Positions 3,941-46,149 of a DNA stretch of 64,000 bases are shown here, in pieces (position 1 is the stretch's first letter; each line of letters starts with the position of its first letter). The position numbers and the translations under genes were made by a program. The notes under the pieces are model-generated. The model did not search any database. It was not told where the DNA came from and saw nothing but the letters and a program-made list of their open reading frames with translations. The stretch comes from a candidate division WOR-3 bacterium (GTDB taxonomy: Bacteria; Hydrothermota; Tepidihabitantia; Tepidihabitantales; Tepidihabitantaceae): assembly GCA_016867815.1 (NCBI GenBank), contig VGIR01000004.1, positions 488 to 64,487 of the forward strand, written 5' to 3'.

Positions 3941-3962
3941 TTCATGTCTCCCTAGTTTGGCG

Positions 3963-8120: not shown

Positions 8121-8133
8121 AGAAGCGGAGTAT

Positions 8134-8212: not shown

Positions 8213-8220
8213 GGGCATCC

Positions 8221-10789: not shown

Positions 10790-10809
10790 GGTAGACGGAC
10801 CGGAGTCTT

Positions 10810-10888
10810 ACCACCAAGACACCAAGACACCAAGGTCGGAATCCGGCCGGCCGGAGAGATCTCTTTGTGCCTTTGTGCCTTTGTGGTG
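10810..10888. repeat. Palindromic repeat element E5 (ACCACCAAG ACACCAAG ACACCAAG, a 27-nt spacer, then CTCTTTGTG CCTTTGTG CCTTTGTGG) between lysS and the LolC/E gene, ~22 nt upstream of the permease ATG.
   Basis: Nearly identical to E2 in its arms. The distal context CTTGGTGGTRAKACTCCG..ATG is shared with mcsB. Confidence 0.65.
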
Positions 10889-10903
10889 AGAATCCTCACC
10901 GAA

Positions 10904-12451: not shown

Positions 12452-12524
12452 CGGGCAAGACTATATCCGTGTCAGAGGCGAAGTCAAACAGACGAAGAAG
12501 AGATCGACGCCGGGACAGGCACCT

Positions 12525-12552
12525 ACCACCAAGTCACAAAGACACAAAGATG
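12525..12552. repeat. Partial element E6 (CCACCAAG TCACAAAG ACACAAAG) upstream of lysS.
   Basis: Only one arm type is clearly present. Confidence 0.4.
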
Positions 12553-13407: not shown

Positions 13408-13508
13408 AGACTGCTGTCAAACCACTTGTCGAGGGACAATCCCTAGCCGCCCGAGGAGGCTGGCCGCGAAGTTAGGCGCATGGCGAAGTCGGGATGATGA
13501 GACATGTT

Positions 13509-13760
13509 CGTATCACTATGCCGAGGGCGTTTTCGGTCCTATGTGCCTGAGGATTAGGGCGTTAGGCGGCATCGAGCCGAAATGACCCCCCCCGCCCCGG
13601 GGACTGCTCGGGGGATAGCCAGCCATGTCGTTTGTATCGCTGTATCGGACATCGTTCGGCAGACAGTCTCGGACACGGTCTGGGAGAGTCCTTGGTCCGT
13701 TGTCCCGGAGGCAGTGCGGCAAGCTGCGTGCATCGTTGCTTCGTGCGTCGTTTGGGGAAA
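13509..13760 (+). ncRNA. Conserved noncoding element, copy 1 (candidate sRNA, 5' leader or cis-regulatory element; not identified in any known family).
   Basis: About 230 nt that align at ~70% identity with 30006-30236 (shared blocks CCTATGTG..TGAGG..TTAGGC..CGAAATGACCCC, a CATCGTT/TCGNTGTA repeat block, CAGACAGTC, GAGAGTCCTTGGTCC). Lies in a 680-bp ORF-free divergent intergenic region. Strand not established. Confidence 0.3.
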
Positions 13761-13969
13761 AGCAGAGATAGTATGCAGCAGGCAGTAGACAGGACTGCCG
13801 GGCACGCAGACGGGCACGTCGTTCTGCACGTTGCTTCCGCCGCAATCCGGAACGCAGCCTGCGAGGCGGTTCGCGGGGTTGCGCCCGGAGTCATGTCCTT
13901 TTCCGTGACCCGAGTCCCACGATGAGAGGTCTTCCCGAATCCAGCCTGCGGCGTGAGTCCATCACCGGC

Positions 13970-13997
13970 TTGACATGGCGTACCGGGGCGATAGCAT
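13970..13997 (+). promoter_or_regulatory. Putative sigma70-type promoter (TTGACA-N16-TAGCAT) for the CARDB cargo gene.
   Basis: Read directly from the sequence, ~125 nt upstream of the ATG at 14121. Strong SD AAGGAGGT 7 nt before the ATG. Confidence 0.35.
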
Positions 13998-14120
13998 GAC
14001 CCGTTCACGGGCTGCGGTCCTTTGCAGCCGTGAGCGGCATACGCCGGCAGGCCGCGTGGCAAGGCTGTCTGCGGTGGCGACCGGCGGGTGCGCAACGCCA
14101 GTCAGCACGAAGGAGGTCGG

Positions 14121-16343: not shown

Positions 16344-16371
16344 TCAGCATCCGACAGCAGCAGTCGGCAGG

Positions 16372-16389
16372 GGCGGGCGCAAGCCCGCC
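16372..16389 (+). terminator. GC-rich GNRA-tetraloop hairpin (GGCGGGC GCAA GCCCGCC) immediately after the cargo-gene stop. Likely an intrinsic terminator without a U-tract.
   Basis: Perfect 7-bp stem with a GCAA loop. A near-identical hairpin follows the 27532-29889 gene. Confidence 0.4.
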
Positions 16390-16432
16390 TCTTGCTGGAC
16401 AGGTCGCGGGCTGTAGCCTACACTCTACAGAG

Positions 16433-16951
16433 ATGGGTCGCATCCTCTGTATAGACTACGGCGAGCGGCATACGGGCGTTGCGGTCTCTGACCCGACGCG
16501 AACCATCGCGCAAGCTTTGCCGACCATCCATCACTCGAGCAAACGCGAGCTGCTGGAAGCGCTTAGGCGGCTCATTGCCGAGCAGGAGGTGACTGAGGTC
16601 GTCATCGGCCTGCCGGTGGCTCAATCCGGCAAGCCGAGCCGTCGGTCCGAGCAGGTGCGGAGTTTCGCCGGGCAACTGAGGAAGGCAACCGGCCTGTCTG
16701 TGGCGACGTTCGATGAACGCTTCTCGACCGCCCGAGCGACCGAGGTGCTGGAGGAGATGTCGGGCGGCCGCGACCTCGCGCCCGGCAAGCGCGCAGCCAC
16801 CGGCCGGAACCGGAAGCGCCGCGAAGCCGTGGACCGGATAGCCGCGACCATCATCCTTGAAGACTACCTGGCTGAGATGGGGGACCGCACGAAGAACCCA
16901 GAATCCAGAGTCCAGAATCCAGAATCCAGAAGTACCGGAGCCGGGGCGTGA
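16433..16951 (+). CDS. ruvX: Holliday-junction resolvase-like protein YqgF/RuvX.
   Basis: MGRILCIDYGERHTGVAVSD... RNase-H-like YqgF motif. The C-terminal tail KNPESRVQNPESRST is encoded by an 11-bp tandem repeat (CAGAATCCAGA x3). Confidence 0.75.
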   Translation: MGRILCIDYGERHTGVAVSDPTRTIAQALPTIHHSSKRELLEALRRLIAEQEVTEVVIGLPVAQSGKPSRRSEQVRSFAGQLRKATGLSVATFDERFSTARATEVLEEMSGGRDLAPGKRAATGRNRKRREAVDRIAATIILEDYLAEMGDRTKNPESRVQNPESRSTGAGA

Positions 16952-17955
16952 AACCACCAGGATACCGGTGCACCAAGGTCCTGGTCCTGACCTCTTTGTG
17001 TCTCTGTGCCTTTATGGTGGGTCACCTCTCGTGTTCGAGCCGCGTGCCGTCGAACGGCCGGAAGGTCGAGGTGGTGGTGCGGCCCGGCCAGAGCGCCACG
17101 TCCATCGCCGACACCCTGGTTGTGAAGCAGGTCATCGGCTCCAAACCGCTGTTCCTGCTATACGCCTGGTACTACAACTACAATGCCCGCCTGCGCGCCG
17201 GCCGCTACCAGCTTTCCATCGGCACCGGCGAGCGGCGCGCGCTCCGGCTGCTGGCCGGCGAAGAGGCCGCGGTGACGATGGTCACGATTCCCGAGGGCTA
17301 CACCATGAACGAAATCGCAGCGGTGCTGGCGGAACGCGGGGTCTGCCCGGCCGACAGCTTCCTGAGCGCGTGCATGGATACGAGCCTGCTCCGGCAGTCC
17401 GGCGTGAGGGCGGCGACCGCCGAGGGCTACCTGTTTCCGGAGACCTATGAATTCCTCAGCGGCTCCGCGCCAGCCGATGTCGCGCGCAGGCTGATCCGCC
17501 AGTTCTTCTCGGTGTTCGCCGAACTCCACGACTCCTCACGCCTCCCTCCTGCCTCTTTCCTCACTCCCTCGCAGGTCGTGATACTCGCGTCCATCGTCGA
17601 GCGCGAAGCCAGGGTGCCGGAGGAGTTCCCGCGCATTGCCGGAGTATTCGCTAATCGCCTGCGCCGGCGCCTGCCGCTGCAGTCTTGTGCCACCGTCGAG
17701 TACCTGCTGCCGCAGCGCAAGGGACGGCTGTCGGTAGAGGACACGAAGATAGCGTCCCCGTACAATACCTATCTCCACGCCGGCCTGCCGCCCGGGCCGA
17801 TCTGCAATCCGGGCCGCCGCGCGCTGGCCGCCGCGCTCCATCCCGAGCGGAACGACTATCTCTTCTTTGTCGCCCGCGGCGACGGCACCCACCTCTTCTC
17901 CCGCACCGCGGCCGAGCACGCTGCGGCCTGCCGCCGCGTCCGCGACGGCGGCTAG
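16948..17955 (+). CDS. mltG: Endolytic murein transglycosylase MltG (YceG family).
   Basis: YceG-like domain (..VVVRPGQSATSIADTL..., NTYLHAGLPPGPICNPG). ATGA overlap with the ruvX stop. The N-terminal TM anchor is encoded within repeat element E7. Confidence 0.8.
   Translation: MKPPGYRCTKVLVLTSLCLCAFMVGHLSCSSRVPSNGRKVEVVVRPGQSATSIADTLVVKQVIGSKPLFLLYAWYYNYNARLRAGRYQLSIGTGERRALRLLAGEEAAVTMVTIPEGYTMNEIAAVLAERGVCPADSFLSACMDTSLLRQSGVRAATAEGYLFPETYEFLSGSAPADVARRLIRQFFSVFAELHDSSRLPPASFLTPSQVVILASIVEREARVPEEFPRIAGVFANRLRRRLPLQSCATVEYLLPQRKGRLSVEDTKIASPYNTYLHAGLPPGPICNPGRRALAAALHPERNDYLFFVARGDGTHLFSRTAAEHAAACRRVRDGG
16954..17020. repeat. Palindromic repeat element E7 (CACCAGG..CACCAAGG, a spacer, then CTCTTTGTG TCTCTGTG CCTTTATGG) at the ruvX/mltG junction. 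It encodes the MltG N-terminal hydrophobic segment and supplies an in-frame ATG.
   Basis: The right arm matches E5 at 27 of 31 nt. Confidence 0.5.
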
Positions 17956-17965
17956 CGGAAATGAA

Positions 17966-17993
17966 GCGGGGCGAAACGCCCGTTTCGCCCCGC
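17966..17993. terminator. Bidirectional intrinsic-terminator-like hairpin between convergent mltG and the 18013-19971 gene.
   Basis: Perfect inverted repeat GGGGCGAAACG-CC-CGTTTCGCCCC. Confidence 0.5.
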
Positions 17994-18012
17994 GACTTCC
18001 CGTTCGGTTCGG

Positions 18013-19971
18013 CTAGTTGACCAGCACGGCCCGGCCCGTGAGCCTGCGGTCCTGGGTCCTCAGCTCCACGAAGTAGGTGCCGCGCGAGAGCTTGTGCCCG
18101 CTGTCGTCTCTGCCGTCCCAGACCGCCGTCCCCGGCTCAAGCGCTGAGCGTGCCAGTAGCCGTACGATTCTGCCGGTCTTGTCGAGTATCCGCAGGTCGA
18201 CCGGCACCGACTCCGCTGTCTGCCAACGGATACTGGTGCTGTGGGTGAACACATTCGGCGTCACCGAGAGCCGGTCAGTCCCGACCGAGCGGGAGGTCTC
18301 GACGACGCCAAGCAGCCGGTAGACAGGCGGGCTGACAAACGACGCGACCACCTTGTCTTCGACCAGTATAGGCTCAAAGTAGGTGCCGCCGCTGTAGCCC
18401 GATGCCGAGACGGTCAGCGTGTACTCTCCGGCAGCCAGCCCCTTGATAAGGTACTCACCCCAGGTAGTCGTGTACGCCTGCCCGGTGCCTTTCGCGCCGG
18501 AGGCGGTAACCAGCACCCCACTGACCTCAGTCTGACTGACCCCTTCGTAGACAAAGCCCGAAATGCCGCCGCTTTCGACCGCAACCAGGGCGAAGTTGAT
18601 GTTCTCCGTGATCTGGCCCGCCTGAACGTGAACGCTCTCCGGATAGACCTGGTGGTAGTAGCCCCGCGCGCATGCCCGAACCAGGTACTTGCCCGCGCGC
18701 AGCTCCTGAATCAGGTAGTAGCCGTTTGAGTCCGACTTGGCGTGACCCTGACCGCGCGGACCCCAGGCAAACAGCTCTGCGTTCTTGATCGGCTCCTGGG
18801 TTGCGGAGTCGGTCACCGTTCCGGAGATGCGGCCTCTCTCGCCTTCCTCCGGCTCCAGGGCGAAGTCCACGTGCTGGGTTACCTGTCCGGAATCGACCAC
18901 GACCGTCTCCGGGGGCGCGGGCTTGAATCCTCGGGCACTGGCCATTACGTGGTAGTTACCAGGCGGCAGTTCGCCGATGTAGTAGTTACCTTCCATGTTG
19001 GTATTTGCCTGGCCGCGCCTCGGCCCCTCGGCGACGACCAGCGCGCCGAATATCGGCTTGCCGTTCACCTTGTTCGTCACCGTTCCGGCGACCGCGCCGT
19101 AGCCACCACCCACGGGCTCCAGCGCGAAGTTGATGCCGTCCGTAATCTGGCCGCCAACGACCAGGACCGACTCCGGATAGACCTTGGGCTTGAACCCCTG
19201 AGCCTGCGCGCAGACCCGGTACTTGCCCGCCGGCAGATTCTCTATCAGATACCCGCCCTGCTGGCAGGTATGTGCTTCGCCGCTGCCTTTCGGCCCGGTG
19301 GCAAACACCACCGCTCCCGGGATGGGCTCGCCGTTGCTGGCATTGGTGACCTTGCCGGAGATGCCGCCTTTCTCGCCGCCGGTGGGCTGCAGAGCGAAGT
19401 TGATGTTCTTTGTGATTTCGCCCGCAACCACAGTAACCGACTCCGGATACACGGACGATTCATACCCAGTGGCCGAGGCGGTGACGCGGTACCTGCCCGG
19501 TGGCAGTCCCGCGATCTGGTACCCGCCGCAGGCATACGAATGGGCCTCGCCGTCTCCGCTCGGACCGCGGGCAACGATGAGAGCGCCGGCAATCGGTTCC
19601 TCCGTAACCGCATCGGTCACCTTACCGGAGATCCCGCCCTTCTCACTGCCGAGCGGTTCCAGGGCGAAGTTGATGCCGTCGGTGACATGGCCCTCCTCCA
19701 CTACTACCGACTCCGGGTAGACCTTGGTCTTGAACCCGGTAGCCGAGGCATGGACCTGGTACTTGCCCGGCTGAATCTGAATCAGGTAGTGGCCGGTGCT
19801 GTCGGTGTAGGCTCCGCCATGGCCGGTGCACACCGCCGCACCCGCGATCGGCTGCCCGCTCTCGGCGTTGGTGACCTTGCCGCAGATACCGGTAAGTGCC
19901 AGCGCCGGTGTACCGGCGACCAGCGTCAGAACCGCAAACAGAACCAGAACACTCTTCATTGCCACCTCCAC
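18013..19971 (-). CDS. Secreted protein with ~7 carboxypeptidase-regulatory-like (CarbopepD_reg/Cna-B-like) repeats and a T9SS C-terminal sorting domain.
   Basis: Repeats GISGKVTDA.T.EPIAGA.V...G....HSYACGGYQI.GLPPGRYRV.ASA.GY.... Signal peptide. C-terminus ...GTYFVELRTQDRRLTGRAVLVN. Confidence 0.8.
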   Translation of the reverse strand: MEVAMKSVLVLFAVLTLVAGTPALALTGICGKVTNAESGQPIAGAAVCTGHGGAYTDSTGHYLIQIQPGKYQVHASATGFKTKVYPESVVVEEGHVTDGINFALEPLGSEKGGISGKVTDAVTEEPIAGALIVARGPSGDGEAHSYACGGYQIAGLPPGRYRVTASATGYESSVYPESVTVVAGEITKNINFALQPTGGEKGGISGKVTNASNGEPIPGAVVFATGPKGSGEAHTCQQGGYLIENLPAGKYRVCAQAQGFKPKVYPESVLVVGGQITDGINFALEPVGGGYGAVAGTVTNKVNGKPIFGALVVAEGPRRGQANTNMEGNYYIGELPPGNYHVMASARGFKPAPPETVVVDSGQVTQHVDFALEPEEGERGRISGTVTDSATQEPIKNAELFAWGPRGQGHAKSDSNGYYLIQELRAGKYLVRACARGYYHQVYPESVHVQAGQITENINFALVAVESGGISGFVYEGVSQTEVSGVLVTASGAKGTGQAYTTTWGEYLIKGLAAGEYTLTVSASGYSGGTYFEPILVEDKVVASFVSPPVYRLLGVVETSRSVGTDRLSVTPNVFTHSTSIRWQTAESVPVDLRILDKTGRIVRLLARSALEPGTAVWDGRDDSGHKLSRGTYFVELRTQDRRLTGRAVLVN

Positions 19972-20383
19972 TGGCTATGCCGCTGTCGGAGTACCGAACG
20001 ACCCCGGCCGCATCCGGGCAGGAGTCGTTCCTGTATTTTCGCCTGACCGGTTTGGATGTCAAGTCCGCGCTCCGCCCTGAATCCGACGATGAGCCACGGA
20101 GCACGCAGACAACTGAAGTATGCGGGGTGGAAACTCCGACCGACACCGGGACTGCGGGCTCACTGGCCTGTGAGAGCGCCCCAGTTCCTGTCGTGGAGAC
20201 ACTCGGCCGCTTGACACGATGGAACTCCAGGGCTAGGATTGTACGTTGATTGGTCGCAGGACCGTTGGCAGAGAAGGTTCTTGAACAGCCTGCAAGTCGT
20301 CGAGTTCGGTCTAGCCTGAAATCCGGTCTGCCGTCCGGCAGAGCCTGTACCGATTCCCCGCACGGCGAGCAAAGGAGTACACC

Positions 20384-22513
20384 ATGATGCTGCGCTTTTC
20401 CGCAAGGTCGCTCGCGACCCTGATTGCCGCGGTCGCGCTTCTCGCCGGCATTGCCGGCGCCGTTCCCGAACCCTGGGTCCACCCGGACGGGAGCATTCAC
20501 TATTACGACCCCATCAGCACGCCGAGCGGCCTGAACTGGAACTTCGCCTGGGATTCGGCGCTCGGGCATGGCGGCTACCTCGCCACCATCACGTCGCAGG
20601 CCGAGAACGATTTCGTCTTCAGCCTGGTCGACTCCAGCCAGTTCTGGCACACGCGCACATCGCGCCAGGTTGCCGGACCGTGGCTCGGCGGCACGCAGGA
20701 CTTCGGCTCATTCGAGCCGGACAGCGGCTGGCACTGGGTGACCGGCGAGTCGATGAACTACCGCAACTGGACTCCGGGCGAGCCGGACAACAACGGAGAC
20801 GAGAATGCTCTCCACTTCGGCGAGGCGCTGAACGCGCGCGTGCCGTCCTGGGATGACGTCAACCGCCTGGACGATTCGATCCGCGGATTCGTACGCGAGC
20901 TCTCTGCCGATTCGACCACGCTCGGCCTGCGCTACTGGGATTCCCCGGCCTGGGAAGGCTACACGCTGTTCGCAAACAACCAGGGCCGGGCCTTCTACCT
21001 GATCGACAACAAGGGCCGGCTGATCCACAGGTGGCGTGTTACCGACAAGACGGTCGGCGCGCTCTACCTGCTGGAAAACGGACTAGTTTCCCAGATCGGT
21101 AACTTGAACAACCCCCATTTCCTCAATGGCGGCCGCGTATCGCTCATCGACTGGGGCGGCAACAAGACCTGGTCCTTCGACTATTCGGACAGCCTGGTCT
21201 GCCTGCACCACGACGCCATCTGGCTGCCCAATGGAAACATGCTGGCGATTGCCTGGGAGCTCAAGACCCGGGCAGAGGCGATCGCGGCGGGCCGCGATAC
21301 GACCAAGCTGACCGCAAACAAGCTCTGGCCCGACCATATCATCGAAGTCGACCCGGCAACCGACAGCATCGTCTGGAAATGGCATGTCTGGGACCACCTC
21401 ATCCAGGACTACGACTCTACCAAGCAGAACTACGGGGTGGTCGGGGACCATCCTGAACTCATCGACCTGAACTTCACGGACGCGGTTTCGCCGATCGCGG
21501 CCGACTGGATACACTCCAACGCTCTCGACTACAACTCGGAGTTCGAGCAGATCCTGCTCAGCGCCCGCGACTTCAACGAAGTGTGGGTCATAGACCACAG
21601 CACAACGACCGATGAGGCGGCCGGTCACACCGGCGGGCGCTACGGCAAGGGCGGAGACCTGCTCTTCCGCTGGGGTAATCCTCGAACCTACCGCCGGGGC
21701 GACAGCACCAGCCAGATCTTCTACCATCAGCACCACTCGTCGTGGATCCCGAGCGGCCTGCCGGGCGCGGGCAATATCACGGTGTTTGACAACGGACTGC
21801 AACGGCCGGGATCGGCGTACTCGACCGCCATCGAGTTCATTCCGCCGGTTGATTCCACCGGCCACTACGCGGACCCTCCGCCCGGCGCACCCTACGATCC
21901 TTTCGGTCCGGCCTGGCAGTACGTCGCCGACCCGCCGACGTCCTTCTACTCGTCCCAGCTCAGCAGCGTCCAGCGACTACCCAACGGGAACACGCTGATT
22001 TGCGAGGGCAACAGCGGGCGGTTCTTCGAACTCGCACCGGATACCCAGGTAGTGTGGAAGTACACCAACCCTGTCACGGACACGCTGCCTAAGTACCAAG
22101 GCACGCCGCCGGCACAGAACACGGTCCACCGGTCGCCGCGCTATCCGCTCGACTACGCCGGACTGCAAGGTCACGACCTGACCCCGGGATACCCGGTGGA
22201 ACTCTACACCACCAAGCAGTACGTCGGCGTGAAGGAAGCTCCGCCGTCCGGCAGCGCTCCGGTCGGGCTGTCAGTCAGCCCCAATCCTTTCGGACCGCTC
22301 GCCCGAATCAGCTTTAATCTGCCGCGTGCCGTTTCGGCGGAACTCGGCATCTACTCGGCTGACGGTCGACTTGTGCGGACGCTGCCGGCCGTCAGCGGCT
22401 CCGTCTGGAACGGCGCCGACAACAACGGGAATCGCGTGGGCCGAGGTGTCTACTACTGCCGGCTGCAGGGACCGTCATTCGGCACGTCGGCGAAACTGGT
22501 GAAGAGCGAGTAG
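20384..22513 (+). CDS. Secreted C-type-lectin-like domain plus arylsulfotransferase (ASST)-like beta-propeller protein with a T9SS C-terminal sorting domain.
   Basis: N-terminal lectin-like region (WHWVTGESMNYRNWTPGEPDN). Central region matches ASST-family blocks (HHDAIWLPNGN, HSNALDY, FYHQHHSSW). C-terminus SPNPFGPLARISF...GVYYCRLQG...KLVKSE. Confidence 0.65.
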   Translation: MMLRFSARSLATLIAAVALLAGIAGAVPEPWVHPDGSIHYYDPISTPSGLNWNFAWDSALGHGGYLATITSQAENDFVFSLVDSSQFWHTRTSRQVAGPWLGGTQDFGSFEPDSGWHWVTGESMNYRNWTPGEPDNNGDENALHFGEALNARVPSWDDVNRLDDSIRGFVRELSADSTTLGLRYWDSPAWEGYTLFANNQGRAFYLIDNKGRLIHRWRVTDKTVGALYLLENGLVSQIGNLNNPHFLNGGRVSLIDWGGNKTWSFDYSDSLVCLHHDAIWLPNGNMLAIAWELKTRAEAIAAGRDTTKLTANKLWPDHIIEVDPATDSIVWKWHVWDHLIQDYDSTKQNYGVVGDHPELIDLNFTDAVSPIAADWIHSNALDYNSEFEQILLSARDFNEVWVIDHSTTTDEAAGHTGGRYGKGGDLLFRWGNPRTYRRGDSTSQIFYHQHHSSWIPSGLPGAGNITVFDNGLQRPGSAYSTAIEFIPPVDSTGHYADPPPGAPYDPFGPAWQYVADPPTSFYSSQLSSVQRLPNGNTLICEGNSGRFFELAPDTQVVWKYTNPVTDTLPKYQGTPPAQNTVHRSPRYPLDYAGLQGHDLTPGYPVELYTTKQYVGVKEAPPSGSAPVGLSVSPNPFGPLARISFNLPRAVSAELGIYSADGRLVRTLPAVSGSVWNGADNNGNRVGRGVYYCRLQGPSFGTSAKLVKSE

Positions 22514-22520
22514 TCCGACA

Positions 22521-23912
22521 GTGAACGCATCTCGACGTACCGTGAAGACACTGGTACTGGCCCTGCTGCCGGCACTGGCAATTGCCACGGTGACGTTCGA
22601 GCGCCGCTGGCACTGGTTCCGCGAAGACATCGGCCGCTCGGTGGCGCTGATGGCGGACGGCGGGTATCTGGTCTCTGGTGAAACCTGGGTGGACTCAACC
22701 TTGTACGGCATCGTCCTGGCGCGAACCGACTCCCTGGGCGACACGAATTCGGTACGTCACTTGCTGGGCGTTGCTCACGGCAGCGGCTACGTCTGTGCCC
22801 TGACAGGGGGGGACATCGTCGCTGCCGGCATTCGCAACGGCTCACGTTTTTTCGCGCAGGGCTTCGATCCCTCGGGTGACTCGATCTGGACCTACGATTC
22901 CCCGCACCGCGGCCTGCCGTTTGCACTCATGGCCACGAGCGATGGCGGATGCCTGATTGCCGGCCGGGATTCGATGCAGGACATGGGCCTCGTGCGGCTC
23001 GATTCCGCGGGCAGCGAAAAGTGGGTCCGTTCCTATGATGAACCCCGCGTCCAGGGTTCCACCACCAACGGTGTGGCCCAAACCCGGGACAGCGGTTTCA
23101 TACTCTGCGGCGACGCGACCGACTACATGGGTTCCTACGTCCGGCTGGTCCGGACCAGTTCAACCGGCGACACGCTCTGGACCCGCCTCTACTCGGGGCC
23201 CGTCGGACCCTCACTGGAGGCGGTCTGCGAAACCCCGGACCGCGGGTTTCTCGCCGTGGGCAACGAGTTCGACACCTTGCAGTCACTGGACGCAGCCTTT
23301 CTCCTGCGTACCGATTCCAACGGCACCATCATCTGGACCCGCAACATCCCGTTTCCCGGCGCCGGAACGCATGCCACGGCACTTCGCACCACCAGTGACG
23401 GTGGCTACATCCTCGCTGGTGCGGTCGATTGGGGTGACTCTTCACGGGCGTGGCTGGCCAGGCTCGACGCCGGGGCGGACACGGTCTGGACAAAGGTCTT
23501 GCCCGGCATTGGCAGGGAAAAGGCCGAGGACGTGTGGCAGACTCCGGATGGTGGCTACGTGATTGCCGGCACATCCGACTCCGCCGGCGGCAGCGTGTTG
23601 CTGGTGAAGACGGATTCTACCGGCCACGTGGATTACGGCGTCGCTGAGGACAACCAGGCCGTCGGCCGGCGCATGGGCCTGTCAATCACGCCCAACCCGA
23701 CCCGCGGCGCAGTCAGTGTAAGCTGGTCACTGCCCGCCAATTCCGCGGCCGACGTCAGCGTGTACGACATCACCGGCACCCACGTGTACTCGGCATCCGA
23801 AATCCGGGCTTCTTCATTCCGGCTCGGTCTTCGGTCACTACCGTCCGGCGTCTACCTGCTCCGACTCGAGTCCGGCCGCAGCAGCGCGACGAGGAAACTG
23901 GTTATCGAATAG
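22521..23912 (+). CDS. Secreted repeat (beta-propeller-like) protein of unknown function with a T9SS C-terminal sorting domain.
   Basis: Seven-fold repeated (T.DGGY.L.G......W..K.D..G..LW) units. C-terminus ITPNPTRGAVSVSW...GVYLLRLESGRSSATRKLVIE. Lies 7 nt after the previous cargo gene. Confidence 0.7.
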   Translation: MNASRRTVKTLVLALLPALAIATVTFERRWHWFREDIGRSVALMADGGYLVSGETWVDSTLYGIVLARTDSLGDTNSVRHLLGVAHGSGYVCALTGGDIVAAGIRNGSRFFAQGFDPSGDSIWTYDSPHRGLPFALMATSDGGCLIAGRDSMQDMGLVRLDSAGSEKWVRSYDEPRVQGSTTNGVAQTRDSGFILCGDATDYMGSYVRLVRTSSTGDTLWTRLYSGPVGPSLEAVCETPDRGFLAVGNEFDTLQSLDAAFLLRTDSNGTIIWTRNIPFPGAGTHATALRTTSDGGYILAGAVDWGDSSRAWLARLDAGADTVWTKVLPGIGREKAEDVWQTPDGGYVIAGTSDSAGGSVLLVKTDSTGHVDYGVAEDNQAVGRRMGLSITPNPTRGAVSVSWSLPANSAADVSVYDITGTHVYSASEIRASSFRLGLRSLPSGVYLLRLESGRSSATRKLVIE

Positions 23913-27401: not shown

Positions 27402-27430
27402 TTGACACAAACAGTTTCCGCGTCTAGCAT
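27402..27430 (+). promoter_or_regulatory. Putative sigma70-type promoter (TTGACA-N17-TAGCAT) for the YVTN cargo gene.
   Basis: Read from the sequence. AAGGAG SD 5 nt before the ATG at 27532. Confidence 0.4.
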
Positions 27431-27531: not shown

Positions 27532-29889
27532 ATGAACCGAACCGCAGTTCTCGCCGTCCTTTGCCTGCTCGTTGCGTACGCCGGCGCCCAGTTCCGGGAA
27601 ACCACTGTGCTGCTGCCCGATACGCTCGGTGGCGTCGGATACCCGGGTGCGATGGTCTACAACAGCGGCGCCAACCGCATCTACGCCGGCGGGACCGCGA
27701 GCGACGCGGTAGCCGTCATCGACGCGGCGACCGGCACGCGTGTCGCCCGGATCTCCACCCCACCCGGCGAGGGAATCTATGCGCTATGCTACAATCCGGC
27801 CAACAACAAGCTCTATGCCTCAACCAGCGTCAGCTCCGCCAAGCTGCTGGTCATCGACGGCGCGACGCACGCAGTGCTGGCAACGGTGCCTGTAGGCGGC
27901 TACGTCAACGCAATTCTAGTCAACCCGGCGACCGACCGAGTCTACTGCGTGAACTCGGGCGTGGACTCGGTTACAGTCATCGACGGAACCACCAACGGCG
28001 TCGTCACGACGGTGAAGGTAGGTGACTATCCGTACGCGCTCTGCGTCAACGCGACCAACAACAAGATCTACGTCGCAGGGAACTCCGACAGCTCAGTCAC
28101 CGTCATCGACGGCGCGACCAACAACGTCGTCGCCACTGTCCGGGTCGGCCGCGGCCCGATCGCGCTCTGCTGGAACTCGGGCGAGAATAAGGCGTACAGC
28201 GCCAACAGCACCGATGGCAGCGTCACCGTCATCGATGGCGCAACCAACAACGTCGTCGCCACTGTGGCGACCGGGACTCTAACCCGCGACGTCTGCTACA
28301 ACCCGACCAACAGCAAGGTATACGCTGCGGCAAATGGCACCAGCAAGCTCGTGGTCATAAACGGAGTGACCAACGCCATCGACACGTTCTTCACGGTCGG
28401 CCAAGCCTACGCGGTCGGATACAATCCAACCAGCAACAAGGCCTATTGCACCTGGCAGTACAGCCGTCGGGTCACCATCATTGACGGCACGGCCGATACC
28501 GTGCTCGGCACGGCCGACGTCGGCTACACGCCGGGGCCGGTCATCCACGCCGCGACGGGCAACCGGGTTTTCGTCTGCAACCGCGACGACAACAACCTGA
28601 GCATCGTGGATGGCGTGTCCGATTCGACCGTCGCGACCGCGTATGTCGGCTTCTACCCGTACGGCGCCTGCTATGATTCGCGGCAGAACCGGCTCTACGT
28701 GCCCAACGCGCATGGGCCGACGGTCGCGGTCGTGGACTGCGCGACGAACACCGTCGACGCCGAGGTGGCGGTCGGTCAGGATGTGAGTTCGGCCTGCTTC
28801 GACAGCGTGGACAACAAGATCTTCTGCGCCGTCTCCGGTTCGCAGCGGGTTGCGGTCATTAACGCGGCGACCGGTGCAGTAGTCGACTCGGTGCCGGTCG
28901 GCGGCAGGCCCTTTGGAATCCTGTACAATCAGGCGTCGGGCAAGGTCTACTGCTCCGACATCTATACCGACTCGCTGTTCGTCATCAACGCGGCGACCAA
29001 CGCGGTTCTGGCGCGAATGAGCCCCGGCAACAACCCTGTTGCACTTTGCCTCAGCACTGCCGGTAACAAGGTCTACGTCGCCACCCGTGACGACGACCAG
29101 GTCAGGGTTATCGATGGCGTCACGAATCTCGTTCTTGACTCGATACCGGTCGGCGACGGCCCCTACTTCCTCTGCTACAACGGCAATGACGACAAGGTGT
29201 ACGTCGCGAACTACGGCGACAGCACCGTATCGGTCATCGATTGCGCGGGCGACTCCGTCGTTGCCACCGTCAAGGTCGGCCGCTGGCCGTTCCGGTTGGC
29301 ATACAACCCCGACCACAACAAGGTCTACGTCGTCACCGGCTCTGGGAGCAGTGTCGCTGTGCTCGACGGCGCCGGCGACAGCATCATCACCAAGGTCAGC
29401 GTCGGCCAGAGTCCGCTAAGCGTCATCTACAGTGAACGCACCGGGCTTGCCTACGTCGGCGTCAGTGCGAGGAACATCGTGCTCATAGACGGTGCCACCA
29501 ACGAAGTGAGGAAGAACGTACCTTCCGGCGTCCGGGTCGAGGTCTTCGCCCTGAACCCGTCCGGCGGGCGGGTCTACGCCATCAGCCCGTACGGCTCGGA
29601 CATCACAGTTGTCGTTGACTCTCTGACCGGCATCGCGGAAGCGATGAGTGATGAACGAGCAACGATGAAAGCCGGTCCCACCATCGTCCGCGGCGTCTTC
29701 CTACTGGATGGGGACTGTCCCCGCACAGGGACCATCCCCAAAGCCGTCCTACTGGATGCATGCGGCCGCAGGGCAATTGATCTCAAGCCCGGCGCGAATG
29801 ACGTGCGTCGCCTCGCGCCCGGGGTATACTTCGTCCGGCGCCTGGCCGGCGACTACCGGGCTACCGAGAAGGTGGTCTTGCAGAAGTAG
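27532..29889 (+). CDS. YVTN-family beta-propeller repeat protein (~16 repeats) with a T9SS C-terminal sorting domain.
   Basis: Canonical 40-aa YVTN repeats (..NKIYVAN.GS.SVSVID..TN.VVATV.VG..P.GIA). Signal peptide. C-terminus GVYFVRRLAGDYRATEKVVLQK. Confidence 0.85.
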   Translation: MNRTAVLAVLCLLVAYAGAQFRETTVLLPDTLGGVGYPGAMVYNSGANRIYAGGTASDAVAVIDAATGTRVARISTPPGEGIYALCYNPANNKLYASTSVSSAKLLVIDGATHAVLATVPVGGYVNAILVNPATDRVYCVNSGVDSVTVIDGTTNGVVTTVKVGDYPYALCVNATNNKIYVAGNSDSSVTVIDGATNNVVATVRVGRGPIALCWNSGENKAYSANSTDGSVTVIDGATNNVVATVATGTLTRDVCYNPTNSKVYAAANGTSKLVVINGVTNAIDTFFTVGQAYAVGYNPTSNKAYCTWQYSRRVTIIDGTADTVLGTADVGYTPGPVIHAATGNRVFVCNRDDNNLSIVDGVSDSTVATAYVGFYPYGACYDSRQNRLYVPNAHGPTVAVVDCATNTVDAEVAVGQDVSSACFDSVDNKIFCAVSGSQRVAVINAATGAVVDSVPVGGRPFGILYNQASGKVYCSDIYTDSLFVINAATNAVLARMSPGNNPVALCLSTAGNKVYVATRDDDQVRVIDGVTNLVLDSIPVGDGPYFLCYNGNDDKVYVANYGDSTVSVIDCAGDSVVATVKVGRWPFRLAYNPDHNKVYVVTGSGSSVAVLDGAGDSIITKVSVGQSPLSVIYSERTGLAYVGVSARNIVLIDGATNEVRKNVPSGVRVEVFALNPSGGRVYAISPYGSDITVVVDSLTGIAEAMSDERATMKAGPTIVRGVFLLDGDCPRTGTIPKAVLLDACGRRAIDLKPGANDVRRLAPGVYFVRRLAGDYRATEKVVLQK

Positions 29890-29918
29890 ACGGCAGACAG
29901 TAGACAGCATACAGGGCA

Positions 29919-29940
29919 GGGGCGGGCGAAAGCCCGCCCC
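29919..29940 (+). terminator. GC-rich GNRA-tetraloop hairpin (GGGGCGGGC GAAA GCCCGCCCC) after the YVTN gene. A conserved terminator-like element.
   Basis: Perfect 9-bp stem. The flanking GACAGCA..CAGGG context is shared with the hairpin at 16372. Confidence 0.45.
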
Positions 29941-30005
29941 TGCGTCCTTCGATCTACTCGCCGTGACGATGTCCTAGGCTCGCTGCCGAGCGCGATTCTA
30001 CGACG

Positions 30006-30236
30006 CTGTAGAATAGCGCGGCAGCGGGCTTTCGGGCCTATGTGTTTGAGGCTCGAGGCCTTAGGCTTGAAGCTGACGAAATGACCCCTGTACCTGAGGG
30101 AATACCCCCTGCATCGTTCACATCGTTGTATCGTACATCGTTCCTCAGACAGTCGCAAACGTAGTCCCGGAAAGTCCTTCGTCCCTGGTCTCCAGAGCAG
30201 TCTGACCGGGAGTTCGAGGGCTTGCGTGCCGAACAG
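30006..30236 (+). ncRNA. Conserved noncoding element, copy 2 (homologous to 13509-13760).
   Basis: See copy 1. Sits in a 1.06-kb ORF-free gap and is followed by a perfect 9-10-bp hairpin at ~30276-30305. Confidence 0.3.
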
Positions 30237-30432
30237 CAGGGGATGCAGTTTGCCGGTCTGCAGTCCGGGTTCCTCTCCACTGAGTCCGGGCGTTTGCGGC
30301 CCGGACTGCCGCTGAGACAGCAGTCCAGATTGCGTGCGGGTCAGTCTCCAGACTTGCCTGCCGGGCTATGCGCGGAGGCAATGCAAACTGCAGAATGCAG
30401 ACATCAAAGTGCAGAATGGCGGACCCGAGGAT

Positions 30433-30455
30433 CACCACCAAGGCACCAAGGCACT
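30433..30455. repeat. Partial element E8 (CACCACCAAG GCACCAAG GCAC) in the 1-kb intergenic gap, followed by a 9-bp tandem repeat (GAATGACGA x3, ~30465-30500).
   Basis: Read from the sequence. Confidence 0.4.
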
Positions 30456-30794
30456 ACGATGGAGGAATGACGAAGTCCGAATGACGAATGACGATTGAAA
30501 CTCGAAGCCCGAGGGATGAAACCGCCGATGCACGCCGATGGACGCAAATAGGCGGACCTGGGTAGTTCAGAATCTAGAAACCAGAGGCAACGCGGCCAAA
30601 GGCCGCGAGTTTCCAAGCGAGCCTCTCAAGCAGCTCTTGACCGAGCTTTCGCACGTGCTGCCGAGGGATCTTCCCTTCGACCTTTTGGCACAGCTTTGAG
30701 CTGCGATTCCCCAGTTCCCATTTGGCAGTTTGCGGTGGAGGAGCGGACCCAAGGCTGAGTAGTCTGCGGGTTCCGTGGATAGCAGGCCGCGGGG

Positions 30795-30822
30795 TTGACA
30801 TCCTCGGTCACTGGACTAGAAT
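30795..30822 (+). promoter_or_regulatory. Putative sigma70-type promoter (TTGACA-N16-TAGAAT) for the TPR gene.
   Basis: Read from the sequence. GGAGGAG SD before the ATG at 30950. Confidence 0.4.
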
Positions 30823-30949
30823 CTCATTCTGAGCAGACCGTCTTGCGTGTAGACGGATACCCCTGGCGAGCGGCCGCGGTCCATGCGTGTGGCCGGGAAA
30901 TGCCGCACCCCGGGGTGGCATCAAGTCGAGAGTAGAGGAGACATCGTAG

Positions 30950-31864
30950 ATGAGCAGCAAATCCGACCGTTGGCATCGCAGGCCTGCAAAGCCTGACGCT
31001 GCCGAGGACCGCGGTCCGGGCGTGACGCCGCAGACAGCAGCGCACGGCGGGCAGCCATCCGCCGACACGCCGGTGCAGGAAGCAGAGGAGTGGTGCATGA
31101 AGGCGGTTGCCCTGCACCGGGAAGGCCGACTCGAGGACGCAATCCCTCTTTTCGATAAAGCGCTGGAGCTGAATCCCCGTGAAGCCCGAGGCTGGGCGGG
31201 CAAAGGTCTCTGTCTTGATGCGCTGGGCCGAGACGAAGAGGCGCTCGCCTGCTACAGCGAGGCACTCGCAGACGCCCCACGGGACGCCGAGGTCTGGTGG
31301 CTCAAGGGTGATGCCCTTGAAAGGCAGGGCCGGCACGAGGAGGCGCTGCGACACCTGGACAAGGCACTCGAGCTCGATCCCTGCCTGGCAAACGCGTGGA
31401 TCGACGAAGGACTGGCCCGCAAGGCTCTCGGCCGGTGCGATGAAGCGGTTCGCTGCTATGACCAGGCGCTGAAGCTGGACAGGCGCAGCCCGGAAGCCTG
31501 GTACAACAGAGGGAACGCCCTCTGTGCCCTGGGACGGTTTGAGGAGGGACTCCGCTGCTTCAGCGAGTCGCTGGTGCTCAACCCGCACGACGCGAGCGCC
31601 TGGAGCAACAAAGGCGTCTGCCTTGCCGGCCTGGGCCGCCACGAGGAAGCGGTCGCCTGCTTCGAAAAGGCCCTGCAGATCGACCCCTTGTACCCGGTGG
31701 CTTGGCGGGCAAAGGCAGTGGCACTGGAACGGCTTGGCCGGATAGCGGAAGCGGTCGAGGCGTACAAGCAGTTCATCACGCTTGCATCTGCCGACGATGC
31801 CGCGTCGGTCGAGGGCGTAGAGAAGCACGTTCGCGAGTTGGAGAGCGCATCGGCCGCATCGTAG
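30950..31864 (+). CDS. TPR-repeat protein (about 7 TPR units).
   Basis: Repeated W.AKG.AL..LGR.EEA..CYD.AL.LDP consensus. The long minus-strand ORF 30824-31828 is its antisense shadow. Confidence 0.75.
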   Translation: MSSKSDRWHRRPAKPDAAEDRGPGVTPQTAAHGGQPSADTPVQEAEEWCMKAVALHREGRLEDAIPLFDKALELNPREARGWAGKGLCLDALGRDEEALACYSEALADAPRDAEVWWLKGDALERQGRHEEALRHLDKALELDPCLANAWIDEGLARKALGRCDEAVRCYDQALKLDRRSPEAWYNRGNALCALGRFEEGLRCFSESLVLNPHDASAWSNKGVCLAGLGRHEEAVACFEKALQIDPLYPVAWRAKAVALERLGRIAEAVEAYKQFITLASADDAASVEGVEKHVRELESASAAS

Positions 31865-45205: not shown

Positions 45206-46149
45206 TCCATCGGTTCAGGCCGCTGACTCACCGGCCGCAAACCTCCAGCACCAAGCTCGGCGTAGACGCGATAGCGGGCGCCACGGCCAGCTGCCGGGTT
45301 GTCCTCAAAGCAATTGAACTGAGCTTCAAGAACCGCATCTCCGACTGAGCCGCCGCTCTCCTCAACACGCGAAGCCATTTGACTAGCCGGGCGCAGGACC
45401 GAATACTGCACTTAGAACACAACTTGGGGCGGTACTCCGGTGGTGACGTGAGTGACGGTGAGCCCGGCAGTGCCTCGGCCAATCCTTGGGACTGACCGGT
45501 GAATCGCACCGCAGGTAGCCTCGGCTGCAAGACCCGGGGCAAACCGGGCAGCGAACTCCACCGTAACGAGGAGGCAAACCTCGGGGCTGACCCGACCGGC
45601 CAGCTCCCCGGCTAAAAGGGAAGTTCACCAGCCGGTTGGTCCGGACGTTGCCCGGGAGATTGTGTGCGGGACGCCGGCCGGGTTTACCCGGAGGATTGCG
45701 CTGGAAGCAACGAGGGAATTAACCTCGCGGGCAATCGGTGGGGCAATCCCCGGGGCAGTCCCCCGGGCGGGGGTATCATTTCCCGGCCCCAAGCCCAAAG
45801 CCATAGGCCGCAAACAGATACGCCAGAGAGCCGTCTCCGCAGGATGATAAGAACCTGTCTCATCCGCGCCAAGGTCAGTTCCCGCTCGCCGCACTGCGAT
45901 AGCATGGCCACCGTCTTCCAATTCCCTGCAGAGCGCCGGCCCCTGCTGGATAGTCTAGAGAGGGATCTACTGCTCCAGCGGTGTTCAATTCAAGTCGGCG
46001 CTCCCGTTCACAATGGACATCGCGAGCCTGCTTCCACAAGGTCAATAGCGTGTCAGCTCGGCGACAGGCTGTCGCTTCACGGTGACTGATTCCACTCTGT
46101 CCATCTGCTAGGTCCCGCAATATCGGCCCTTGGCCGACTGGCATGCGGC

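What the first reader, a model, noticed from the sequence alone, without database searches (positions are those of the whole stretch)
29890..30949. 1.06-kb ORF-free gap packed with repeat features: conserved element copy 2, perfect hairpins, 9-bp tandem repeat, partial heptamer element, sigma70 promoter
Downstream of the YVTN cargo gene the sequence shows, in order: the GNRA hairpin terminator (29919-29940); copy 2 of the conserved noncoding element (30006-30236); a perfect 9-10-bp hairpin AGTCCGGGC-GTTTGCG-GCCCGGACT (~30276-30305); the partial heptamer element E8 (30433-30455); GAATGACGA x3 tandem repeats; and a TTGACA-N16-TAGAAT promoter (30795-30822) for the TPR gene. Only short spurious ORFs occur. 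Such a density of structured or repetitive motifs suggests a regulatory or RNA locus, possibly the footprint of small mobile elements.
Basis: seen in the sequence. Interest (0 to 1): 0.5.

Follow-up and report, generated by a model that had tools for sequence, protein, structure and literature searches.

The report
Repeat-built spacer between two genes
The 1.06-kb gene-free gap in this uncultured WOR-3-type bacterium is real non-coding DNA assembled from the lineage's own repeat modules, including one copy of a previously undescribed ~380-base dispersed element, followed by an ordinary promoter for the next gene; no test here showed it to encode a structured RNA.

Summary
All the listed features exist and exceed chance: 5 tandem arrays against 0.13 expected, 2 perfect hairpins against 0.09, and one 11/12 sigma-70 site.

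The gap is not coding. No ORF has a family or homologue. Substitutions against a homologue fall 26/25/22 over the three codon positions.

The core finding is a discrete ~380-nt element at 29995-30373.
- Two truncated, diverged copies lie in the window, at 13489-13723 (+) and 45866-45735 (-).
- Relatives occur in two other lake-metagenome genomes (81-85% identity) with unrelated flanks.
- None was found in about 110 kb (non-redundant) from the closest relatives.
- It is built from short arrays (GAGGCYY x4, ATCGTT x4, AGTCC-type) and is conserved in blocks of 22-30 identical bases.

Rfam finds nothing. Folding energy is unremarkable (z -0.7). Covariation is no better than shuffles. No canonical -35 or terminator is present.

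The flanking 7-8-nt arrays belong to a lineage-wide habit: about 3.2 per kb of intergenic DNA in relatives.

Best reading: a patchwork spacer made of a gene-end hairpin, a dispersed modular repeat, arrays, an orphan hairpin arm, then the TPR promoter and leader. An independent small-RNA family is not excluded. Moderate interest.

The parts
29880..29914 (+). Period-7 array (GCAGACA/GTAGACA, about 5 units) overlapping the YVTN stop codon at 29887-29889
   Evidence: TRF. Logan contigs from several runs end at 29886, at the start of this array.
29916..29943 (+). Perfect 12-bp hairpin with GAAA loop at the end of the YVTN gene. It has no T-run.
   Evidence: A sister copy follows the other T9SS cargo gene at 16367-16392. 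The terminator scan does not list it.
29978..30029 (.). Imperfect palindrome at the 5' edge of the element. Its inner part, 29990-30019, is a 12-bp stem with one mismatch. It holds a -10-like TAGAAT at 30009-30014.
   Evidence: Self-hit and I6. All five copies have TAnnAT in the same alignment columns. No copy has a TTGACA-like -35.
29995..30373 (+). Copy c2 of a dispersed, non-coding, modular element of about 380 nt
   Evidence: 81% identity with no indels to L020 262-636, whose flanks are unrelated. 85% identity to L016 in the core. nhmmer E = 1.7e-134. Mismatches fall 26/25/22 over codon positions.
30048..30075 (+). Sub-array GAGGCTC GAGGCCT TAGGCTT GAAGCTG (period 7) inside the element
   Evidence: Read. 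Copy c3 has fewer units. The reverse complement (AAGCCTC-type arrays) stands alone in relatives L057 and L065.
30061..30090 (+). Longest block identical to L020 (30 nt). It includes CGAAATGACCCC, which is shared by four of the five copies; c3 keeps only GAAATGA.
30113..30142 (+). Sub-array ATCGTT x4 at 8-9-nt spacing
   Evidence: Read. Conserved in c1, L020 and L016, and duplicated in L016.
30151..30191 (+). AGTCC/GTCC-type units, about 5, at 7-10-nt spacing
   Evidence: Repeated three times in L016.
30283..30307 (+). Perfect 9-bp hairpin, loop GTTTGCG. A second upstream partner, GCAGTCCGGG (30260-30269), can pair with the same 3' arm.
   Evidence: Kept in L016 with one compensatory change and one wobble change (read by eye). 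Weakened in L020, where 3 of 9 pairs are lost.
30380..30418 (+). Period-7 array of the lineage-wide CAGAATN type (AATGCAG x5.6)
   Evidence: The same unit type follows stop codons in relatives L057, L062 and L065, and occurs at window 16893-16931.
30427..30455 (+). Orphan left arm of the octamer hairpin family (GAGGATCACCA CCAAGG CACCAAGG CAC)
   Evidence: 93% identical to 8128-8155. No complementary arm occurs downstream in the window.
30465..30498 (+). Period-7 array GAATGAC x4.9
30523..30545 (+). Period-10 array CGCCGATGCA x2.3. Logan contigs from four runs start at 30517.
30546..30794 (.). Unique spacer. It holds a small hairpin, CGCGGCC-AAA-GGCCGCG, at 30592-30608 and a 53-aa ORF (30538-30699) that JGI calls as a gene.
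   Evidence: The ORF has no homologue but itself among 5.8 billion proteins and no Pfam hit. No related DNA was found elsewhere.
30795..30822 (+). Sigma-70-type promoter TTGACA-N16-TAGAAT for the TPR gene
   Evidence: 11 of 12 positions. Other genes here have the same form, at 13970-13997 and 27403-27430.
30823..30949 (+). Predicted 127-nt leader of the TPR gene, with GAGGAG at 30935-30940, 9 nt before the ATG at 30950
   Evidence: No Rfam match.
13489..13723 (+). Copy c1 of the element. It has the 5' motif, the B domain, the ATCGTT array and the AGTCC units, but lacks the 3' third.
   Evidence: (E = 7e-52). It lies between divergent promoters at 13420-13393 (-) and 13970-13997 (+).
45735..45866 (-). 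Copy c3 of the element. Only the 5' motif and a shortened B domain are present. It lies inside a 900-nt ORF-free gap.
   Evidence: nhmmer E = 3.8e-5 with the 4-sequence model. E = 2.8e-30, but c3 was in that model. Sequence.
16367..16392 (+). Sister of the gene-end hairpin, after the CARDB/FlgD_ig cargo gene that ends at 16343
   Evidence: (I24).

Best explanation
The gap is a composite non-coding spacer in a freshwater WOR-3-type bacterium. It is assembled from repeat modules that this lineage uses throughout its intergenic DNA.

In order, it contains:
(a) A gene-end module: a 7-nt array across the stop codon and a perfect GAAA-loop hairpin. This most likely closes or protects the 3' end of the YVTN transcript.
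(b) One copy (29995-30373) of a dispersed, modular, non-coding element of about 380 nt. The element is itself a chain of short arrays (GAGGCYY, ATCGTT, AGTCC-type) plus a hairpin.
(c) A CAGAATN array, an orphan arm of the octamer hairpin family, and two more arrays.
(d) About 250 nt of unique sequence.
(e) The TPR gene's own sigma-70 promoter and 127-nt leader.

Shown: the parts, their repetition, their non-coding nature, and their blockwise conservation.

Inferred: the arrays arise and turn over by slippage and recombination. The spacer grew by accretion of such modules. The element acts, if it acts at all, through its conserved sequence blocks (binding sites on DNA or RNA) and not through a defined RNA fold.
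For: Features and chance tests.

Not coding.

Element family:
- Three copies in the window.
- Homologues in L016 (identical to L033 and L036) and in L020, with unrelated flanks.
- Internal module duplication in L016.
- Unit loss in c3, and truncation in c1 and c3.
- Boundaries differ between pairs: L016 and L020 share 60 nt more upstream than c2 and L020 do.

Blockwise conservation: four identical runs of at least 20 nt, permutation p = 0.0024.

Modules occur independently elsewhere in the lineage: GAGGCTT-type and CAGAATN arrays in relatives.

Lineage-wide density of arrays: 43 period-7/8 arrays in 13.3 kb of called intergenic DNA, against 38 in 82 kb of called coding DNA.

No RNA-structure signal.

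Promoter form matches other genes of this genome.

The gene-end hairpin is repeated after a second cargo gene.
Against: - Only five distinct copies are known, so absence of covariation is weak evidence.
- Copies in different genomes (81-85% identity) are more alike than copies within the window (about 70% identity to c2 over the aligned parts). This fits functional paralogues under selection better than passive filler or a recent mobile burst.
- In all five contexts the element lies outside the neighbours' predicted transcription units, after a terminator-like hairpin or between divergent promoters. That differs from REP/BOX-type elements.
- A -10-like TAnnAT sits at a fixed distance from the first conserved block in all copies. 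This would suit an independent transcript.
Confidence: 0.5

Rival explanations
1. The element is an independently transcribed small-RNA gene family. Transcription would start about 7 nt after the TAnnAT box (near 30021 in c2). The RNA would be about 100-360 nt long. It would act through its conserved single-stranded blocks and repeated motifs (GAGGC x4, AUCGUU x4, AGUCC x5), either by base-pairing with targets or as a multivalent decoy for an RNA-binding protein.
For: - TAnnAT sits at a fixed distance from block B1 in all five copies.
- The element lies outside neighbouring transcription units in all contexts.
- Sequence is conserved blockwise without coding signal.
- Copies across genomes are more similar than copies within the genome.
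- A C-run/G-run/C-run hairpin follows GAAATGA in 4 of 5 copies.
- On the + strand, blocks B1 and D of c2 and L020 can pair through G-U pairs, with one compensatory change.
Against: - No TTGACA-like -35, although the protein-gene promoters examined in this genome have one.
- No hairpin-plus-U-run terminator at any plausible 3' end.
- MFE z-scores are -0.66 (+ strand), -0.73 (- strand) and -1.72 (L020).
- The RNAalifold covariation term is +0.88 for five sequences.
- The c2/L020-derived structure shows covariation no better than shuffles on four sequences (153 of 500), and one slid control scores higher.
- No Rfam family matches.
Confidence: 0.27
2. The element is a non-autonomous mobile element, of the MITE type or derived from IS200/IS605 with subterminal hairpins. 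It would have inserted into this spacer, and the rest of the gap would be debris of further insertions.
For: - The unit is discrete, with unrelated flanks in three genomes.
- It has a palindrome near the left end and a hairpin near the right end.
- c1 lies in a 4.4-kb island that relatives lack.
- Logan assemblies from several runs break at 29886 and 30517.
Against: - No terminal inverted repeats and no consistent target-site duplication were seen when the junctions were read by eye.
- Homology boundaries differ between pairs.
- Copies within the window are only about 70% identical.
- No transposase gene was found among the window genes scanned against Pfam (JGI calls in 17, 31).
- No match in the viral, phage or plasmid collections.
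Confidence: 0.12
3. The arrays and palindromes are operator or binding arrays for DNA-binding proteins. Ribbon-helix-helix proteins, for example, bind tandem 7-8-bp units (MetJ metboxes, omega-protein heptads). Such arrays would regulate the TPR promoter or organise the chromosome.
For: - Tandem 7-8-nt units and 20-bp palindromes are present.
- The element lies upstream of a sigma-70 promoter in two of the three window copies.
- Conservation is of sequence and not of structure.
- The comparison with MetJ and omega protein rests on my own knowledge.
Against: - At least eight different unit types in 630 nt would need many different proteins.
- The element is 420 nt (c2) and 250 nt (c1) from the promoters, and in L016 and L020 it faces convergent genes.
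- The same array types follow stop codons inside operons in relatives.
Confidence: 0.07
4. The gap is the remnant of a decayed protein-coding gene.
For: Its size, 1.06 kb, is gene-like. JGI calls a 53-aa ORF at 30538-30699.
Against: - No Pfam hit for any of the 10 longest ORFs, even at E <= 1 apart from one chance-level match.
- The 53-aa ORF has only itself as a homologue.
- Substitutions against L020 show no codon periodicity.
- c1 and c2 differ by a 13-nt indel.
- The sequence is dominated by 7-10-nt arrays.
Confidence: 0.03

Closest known systems
REP/BIME elements of Escherichia coli and other enterobacteria (own knowledge)
   Same: Dispersed intergenic repeats. They are mosaic combinations of a few motif types, form hairpins, are non-coding and are restricted to a lineage. 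The lineage's octamer hairpins at operon junctions resemble REPs in position.
   Different: REPs are 35-40-nt palindromic units with a conserved GTAG head. They are linked to RAYT transposases and mostly lie inside transcription units. The 380-nt element here is a chain of direct 7-9-nt arrays, has no sequence similarity to REPs, and lies outside the neighbours' predicted transcription units. No RAYT gene was seen in the window.
BOX elements of Streptococcus pneumoniae (boxA-boxB(n)-boxC) (own knowledge)
   Same: Modular build, with internal modules that vary in copy number between copies. The C and D modules are duplicated in L016, and units are lost in c3. BOX elements are also intergenic and non-coding, 100-400 nt long.
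   Different: BOX copies number over 100 per genome and are highly similar to each other. They have defined end modules and a strong predicted fold. Here three copies occur in 64 kb at about 70% identity, boundaries vary, and no fold signal was found.
Contiguous heptamer repeats of heterocystous cyanobacteria (STRR) and of Beggiatoaceae
   Same: Tandem arrays of 7-nt units, 3-17 copies, concentrated in intergenic DNA near start codons, stop codons and promoters, with several unit families per genome. A regulatory role is suspected but unproven (bioRxiv 10.1101/2022.06.06.494920; STRR literature from own knowledge).
   Different: The phylum differs (WOR-3), the unit sequences differ (CAGAATN, GCAGACA, GAATGAC), and an 8-nt class forming long hairpins is also present. 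The 380-nt element is a conserved chain of several different arrays, which I do not know to have been described for STRRs.
MITEs and IS200/IS605-derived palindrome-associated elements
   Same: A small non-coding unit found in unrelated contexts, with hairpins near both ends.
   Different: No terminal inverted repeats, no target duplication, low identity within the genome, and no cognate transposase in view.
Multivalent decoy RNAs such as CsrB/RsmZ (own knowledge)
   Same: A short motif repeated many times within a few hundred nucleotides, and paralogous copies in one genome.
   Different: There is no GGA-in-loop hairpin series, no terminator, no Rfam match and no evidence of transcription.

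Membership tests
Any Rfam 15 RNA family | Covariance-model score at or above the family's gathering threshold | tested here: not met
   No match in the whole window at gathering thresholds. The gap and the c1 region give only E = 2.4-6 chance hits, 50-70 bits below threshold.
Structured non-coding RNA (generic) | Folding energy lower than shuffled sequence | tested here: not met
   z = -0.66 on the + strand, -0.73 on the - strand and -1.72 for L020.
Structured non-coding RNA (generic) | Base pairs kept through compensatory changes | tested here: inconclusive
   The RNAalifold covariation term is +0.88 for five sequences. On four sequences the covariation score is reached by 153 of 500 shuffles, and a +2 slide scores higher. 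Only 4-5 distinct sequences are available.
Independent sRNA gene | Own promoter | tested here: inconclusive
   A -10-like TAGAAT, TGTAAT, TATCAT or TATCAC occupies the same columns in all copies. None passes the two-hexamer scan, whereas the protein-gene promoters examined here show TTGACA.
Independent sRNA gene | Intrinsic terminator at the 3' end | tested here: not met
   No hairpin-plus-T-run lies downstream of the core on the + strand in c2, c1 or L020. The only ones in L016 belong to the convergent gene or lie upstream of the element.
Intrinsic terminator (hairpin at 29916-29943) | GC-rich stem followed by a T-run | tested here: not met
   The stem is perfect (12 bp), but the tail is CGTCCTTCGATC and the scan does not list it. 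It works like a gene-end hairpin, but a termination function is not shown.
Sigma-70 promoter (30795-30822) | TTGACA and TATAAT hexamers 16-18 nt apart, upstream of a gene with a ribosome-binding site | tested here: met
   11 of 12 positions, 16-nt spacer, one site against 0.2 expected. GAGGAG lies 9 nt before the ATG at 30950. Activity was not tested.
MITE | Terminal inverted repeats and target-site duplication | tested here: not met
   The junctions of c2 and L020 were read by eye. The ends are not inverted copies of each other. The flanks are GCGCG/GCGCG in the window but GGGA/TCCC in L020.
MITE | Many near-identical copies in one genome | tested here: inconclusive
   Three copies at about 70% identity in 64 kb. 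The rest of the genome could not be scanned.
REP/BIME | 35-40-nt imperfect palindromic units in alternating orientation, inside transcription units | tested here: not met
   The element consists of direct arrays and lies between a terminator-like hairpin and the next promoter, or between divergent promoters.
BOX-type modular element | Fixed end modules with a variable number of a middle module | tested here: inconclusive
   Middle modules do vary: they are duplicated in L016. The 3' ends are not fixed: c1 and c3 are truncated.
Tandem heptamer arrays (STRR-like) | Contiguous direct repeats of a 7-nt unit, enriched in intergenic DNA | tested here: met
   Three period-7 arrays in the gap. 3.2 arrays per kb of intergenic DNA against 0.46 per kb of coding DNA in five loci of the lineage. 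The similarity is of kind only, because the unit sequences differ from the published ones.
Protein-coding gene or pseudogene | Codon-periodic substitution, or homology to proteins | tested here: not met
   Mismatches fall 26/25/22 over codon positions. No Pfam family. No homologue.

The most novel reading that the evidence does not exclude
The 7-8-nt arrays, the octamer-periodic hairpins and the 380-nt composite element may together form one lineage-specific intergenic system in freshwater WOR-3 bacteria.

In this reading, paired arrays make conserved intercistronic hairpins whose loops serve as entry points for gene cassettes. Two observations prompt it:
- The 4.4-kb island with c1 lies between split octamer arms.
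- In L062 a 23S_rRNA_IVP-family gene lies between complementary heptamer arrays.

The 380-nt element would then be an independently transcribed RNA with multivalent motif arrays that acts on the same machinery. The gap would be a site where several such modules piled up.
Probability: 0.15. Interest if true: 0.7.

Novelty: new variant of a known kind. Interest (0 to 1): 0.36.

Why it matters
Uncultured phyla such as WOR-3 have almost no described non-coding biology. This gap shows three things about one freshwater lineage:
- It fills its intergenic DNA with short-unit arrays.
- It keeps array-built hairpins at the same operon junctions while the unit sequence changes.
- It carries a dispersed 380-nt element conserved in sequence blocks across genomes.

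If the element or the hairpins prove functional, as an RNA decoy, a protein-binding array or a cassette entry site, they would be a new regulatory or genome-plasticity device.

In practice, these repeats coincide with breaks in short-read assemblies at fixed points. They also mislead gene callers, which extend N-termini through hairpins and call a 53-aa phantom ORF.

Tried and rejected
- **Rfam.** Gathering and E-value scans of the window, the gap and the c1 region found nothing.
- **Genome collection.** A scan with ACATCGTTCNNCAGACAGTC gave 10 loci. Nine were chance and one was real, L016.
- **Metagenome collection.** A scan with TTAGGC-N8-12-CGAAATGACCCC gave 33 loci. Only L020, L033 and L036 were real.
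- **Viral, phage and plasmid collections.** No true match. One 16-base pattern hit, L056, failed the model search.
- **Orthologues of the YVTN gene for synteny.** The best hit is 35% identical, so there is no usable orthologue.
- **LysRS-anchored loci from relatives** (79-90% identity, about 110 kb non-redundant). No copy of the element was found, and the c1 position is occupied by other genes or by nothing.
- **Retrieving the middle Logan contig** through the 98-aa ORF. It is not on record.
- **Sigma-54 promoter.** None in the gap.
- **Invertible-segment (inverton) reading.** The inverted repeats within the gap are at chance level by my own rough estimate. The sequences at the Logan break points are not inverted copies of each other.
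- **DGR template/variable-repeat reading.** The gap has no match to coding sequence in the window.
- **GGGAAATGCC...CCCC motif in the TPR leader.** It looked like block B2 of c3, but it is not matched by the strict pattern and was dropped.
- **Small conserved ORF inside the element.** Rejected. The 40-aa frame has a stop at codon 5 in L020, and c1 has a 13-nt indel.
Full report
**Observation**

The gap 29890-30949 lies between a 785-aa YVTN beta-propeller gene (27532-29889) and a 304-aa TPR gene (30950-31864).

The density of features is far above chance. Five merged arrays were found against a mean of 0.13 in 200 dinucleotide-preserving shuffles. Two perfect hairpins were found against 0.09. 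G+C falls only from about 65% to 57-59%. There is a strong A-over-T excess on the + strand across the arrays.

**Source and reality of the sequence**

Three JGI assemblies from different samples carry the gap at 99.96-100% identity (L001/L050, L002/L051, L055). It is therefore not an assembly artefact. The lysyl-tRNA synthetase of the window (10904-12451, minus strand) has its best named relatives in candidate division WOR-3, at 74-76% identity. Unnamed metagenome relatives reach 90%.

**Not coding**

The longest ORFs in the gap (30-101 aa) are arginine-rich out-of-frame products. None has a Pfam family. The 53-aa ORF that JGI calls a gene has no homologue but itself among 5.8 billion proteins. 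Against its homologue in L020, the element has 73 mismatches in 375 aligned bases, no indel, and 26/25/22 mismatches at the three codon positions.

**The conserved element**

Copy c2 is a discrete unit at 29995-30373.
- It aligns to L020 (a different Ga0194125 contig) over 375 bases at 81% identity. The sequence on both sides is unrelated.
- Its core is 85% identical to L016, from the MAG CAZAKP01. The same L016 sequence recurs in L033 and L036. In L016 the middle modules are duplicated.

Two further copies lie in the window.
- c1 is at 13489-23723's counterpart 13489-13723 on the plus strand and lacks the 3' third.
- c3 is at 45866-45735 on the minus strand and has only the 5' third, with fewer heptamer units.

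Each copy lies in one of three long ORF-free gaps of the window (680, 1060 and 900 nt).

No copy was found in about 110 kb (non-redundant) of LysRS-anchored loci from relatives. None was found in viral, phage or plasmid collections.

c1 lies in a 4.4-kb stretch between LysRS and YceG that relatives lack or fill with other genes.

Conservation is blockwise. Four runs of 22-30 identical bases occur where about 20 would be the expected maximum, with permutation p = 0.0024. The same blocks are the ones shared with c1 and L016.

Internally the element is a chain of short direct arrays:
- GAGGCTC/GAGGCCT/TAGGCTT/GAAGCTG
- ATCGTT four times, at 8-9-nt spacing
- about five AGTCC-type units
- a hairpin whose 3' arm has two alternative 5' partners

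**Tests for an RNA**

- Rfam finds nothing.
- Minimum free energies are like those of shuffled sequence: z = -0.66 and -0.73 for the two strands, and -1.72 for L020.
- RNAalifold on five 5' domains gives a covariation term of +0.88.
- A structure derived from c2 and L020 pairs block B1 with block D through G-U pairs. Counted on four sequences, it shows covariation no better than shuffles (153 of 500), and one slid control scores higher.
- The 30283-30307 hairpin keeps its pairs in L016 through one compensatory change and one wobble change (read by eye). It loses three of nine pairs in L020.

With five sequences this is absence of support, not refutation.

**Transcription context**

The protein-gene promoters examined in this genome have canonical sigma-70 form: TTGACA-N16-TAG(A/C)AT. 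The LysRS promoter, TTGACT-N17-TATAGT, is conserved in relatives.

All five copies of the element have a -10-like TAnnAT at a fixed distance from the first conserved block. None has a matching -35, and none is followed by a hairpin with a T-run.

In every context the element lies outside the neighbours' predicted transcription units:
- after a gene-end or terminator-like hairpin (c2, L016, L020)
- between divergent promoters (c1)
- facing a divergent gene (c3)

No sigma-54 site is present.

**The short arrays are a lineage habit**

In five loci of the lineage (95 kb) TRF finds 81 period-7/8 arrays. Of these, 43 lie in 13.3 kb of called intergenic DNA and 38 in 82 kb of called coding DNA. Most of the 'coding' ones lie in N-terminal extensions of gene calls.

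CAGAATN arrays, like the one at 30380-30418, follow stop codons directly in L057, L062 and L065. GAGGCTT-type arrays stand alone in L057 and L065.

The gap's octamer piece is a left arm of the hairpin family seen at 8128-8224 and 10803-10899. It has no partner arm in the window.

The gene-end hairpin recurs after the other T9SS cargo gene, at 16367-16392.

**Assembly breaks**

Logan contigs that carry the YVTN gene end at 29886 in three runs. Those that carry the TPR gene start at 30517 in four runs. The break points bracket the repeat-rich 630 nt exactly.

Three causes fit: length variation of arrays among strains, paralogous gene ends, or a presence/absence allele. The data at hand do not separate these. 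A simple deletion joining 29886 to 30517 does not fit the left break by one base.

**Interpretation**

I read the gap as a patchwork spacer, in this order: gene-end array and hairpin; one copy of a dispersed modular repeat; further arrays and an orphan hairpin arm; unique sequence; then the TPR promoter and leader (confidence 0.5).

The main rival is an independently transcribed small-RNA family acting through conserved single-stranded blocks or as a multivalent decoy (0.27). What keeps it alive:
- the fixed TAnnAT box
- the position outside other transcription units
- the higher similarity between genomes than within the window

Lower-ranked readings are a non-autonomous mobile element (0.12), protein-binding operator arrays (0.07) and a dead gene (0.03).

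**Comparison with known systems**

It works most like mosaic intergenic repeats: REP/BIME, pneumococcal BOX, and the cyanobacterial and Beggiatoa heptamer arrays (for the last). It meets the defining features of none of these families except the generic 'tandem heptamer array' description. It is therefore a new family of a known general kind, with an unusual build (a conserved chain of different short arrays) and an unusual position.

**Verdict**

The 'RNA locus' reading is unproven, and the 'mobile footprint' reading is plausible but unproven. Interest is moderate at 0.36. The lineage-wide array and hairpin system noticed in passing is probably the more rewarding lead.

Noticed in passing
window 6976-7061, 8128-8224, 9478-9558, 10803-10899; L057 11654-11727, 12973-13064, 15424-15506; L062 13403-13487, 15858-15931; L065 6881-6972, 9315-9438; L068 about 3135-3255: Long hairpins whose two arms are tandem 8-nt units sit at the same operon junctions (LysRS|FtsX, FtsX|ABC, McsB|SelA) in the window and in relatives. 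The unit sequence differs between genomes, while arm complementarity and a mismatch about every 8 nt are kept. This looks like a conserved intercistronic structure evolving in concert. Gene callers often extend ORFs through them.
   Followed up: partly
window 12521-12550 and 16993-17022: The two halves of an octamer pair (83% complementary) flank a 4.4-kb stretch that holds a hypothetical gene, element copy c1 and a CARDB/FlgD_ig cargo gene. Relatives L060 and L061 have YceG and LysRS only 225 nt apart. L057 and L062 have toxin-antitoxin genes there. This suggests insertion into a hairpin loop, or arrays acting as cassette ends.
   Followed up: partly
L062 11662-11699 and 12121-12156; also L065, L069, L070 between LysRS and FtsX: A small 23S_rRNA_IVP-family (PF05635) gene lies between LysRS and FtsX in four relatives but not in the window. 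In L062 it is flanked by AATCCAG x5.4 and the complementary ATTCTGG x5.1.
   Followed up: no
window 29886/29887 and 30516/30517: Logan short-read contigs from independent SRA runs stop and restart at exactly these two positions (three runs on the left, four on the right). JGI assemblies run through. The cause is not resolved: strain polymorphism, array length variation, or repeats elsewhere in the genome.
   Followed up: partly
window 55385-63988 (minus strand): A 2867-aa ORF is built of about 21 tandem 312-nt (104-aa) units at 60-84% identity. It is probably a giant repetitive surface protein.
   Followed up: no
window 2261-5825 (minus strand): Two adjacent PD40 beta-propeller genes contain about 16 units of 111-117 nt. 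These dominate the direct-repeat families of the window.
   Followed up: no
window 16893-16931: An AGAATCC x5.6 array (CAGAATN type, 90% matches) lies between the cargo gene's hairpin and YceG. It is the cleanest heptamer array in the window.
   Followed up: no
L016 3048-3070 and 3208-3230: Two copies of a near-perfect 20-bp palindrome of the type ATGATNCGAATTCGNATCAT lie 160 nt apart, upstream of the element and next to the promoter of a type I restriction R-subunit gene. Weaker versions head copies c1 and c3 in the window. It looks like an operator, but no partner protein is known.
   Followed up: no
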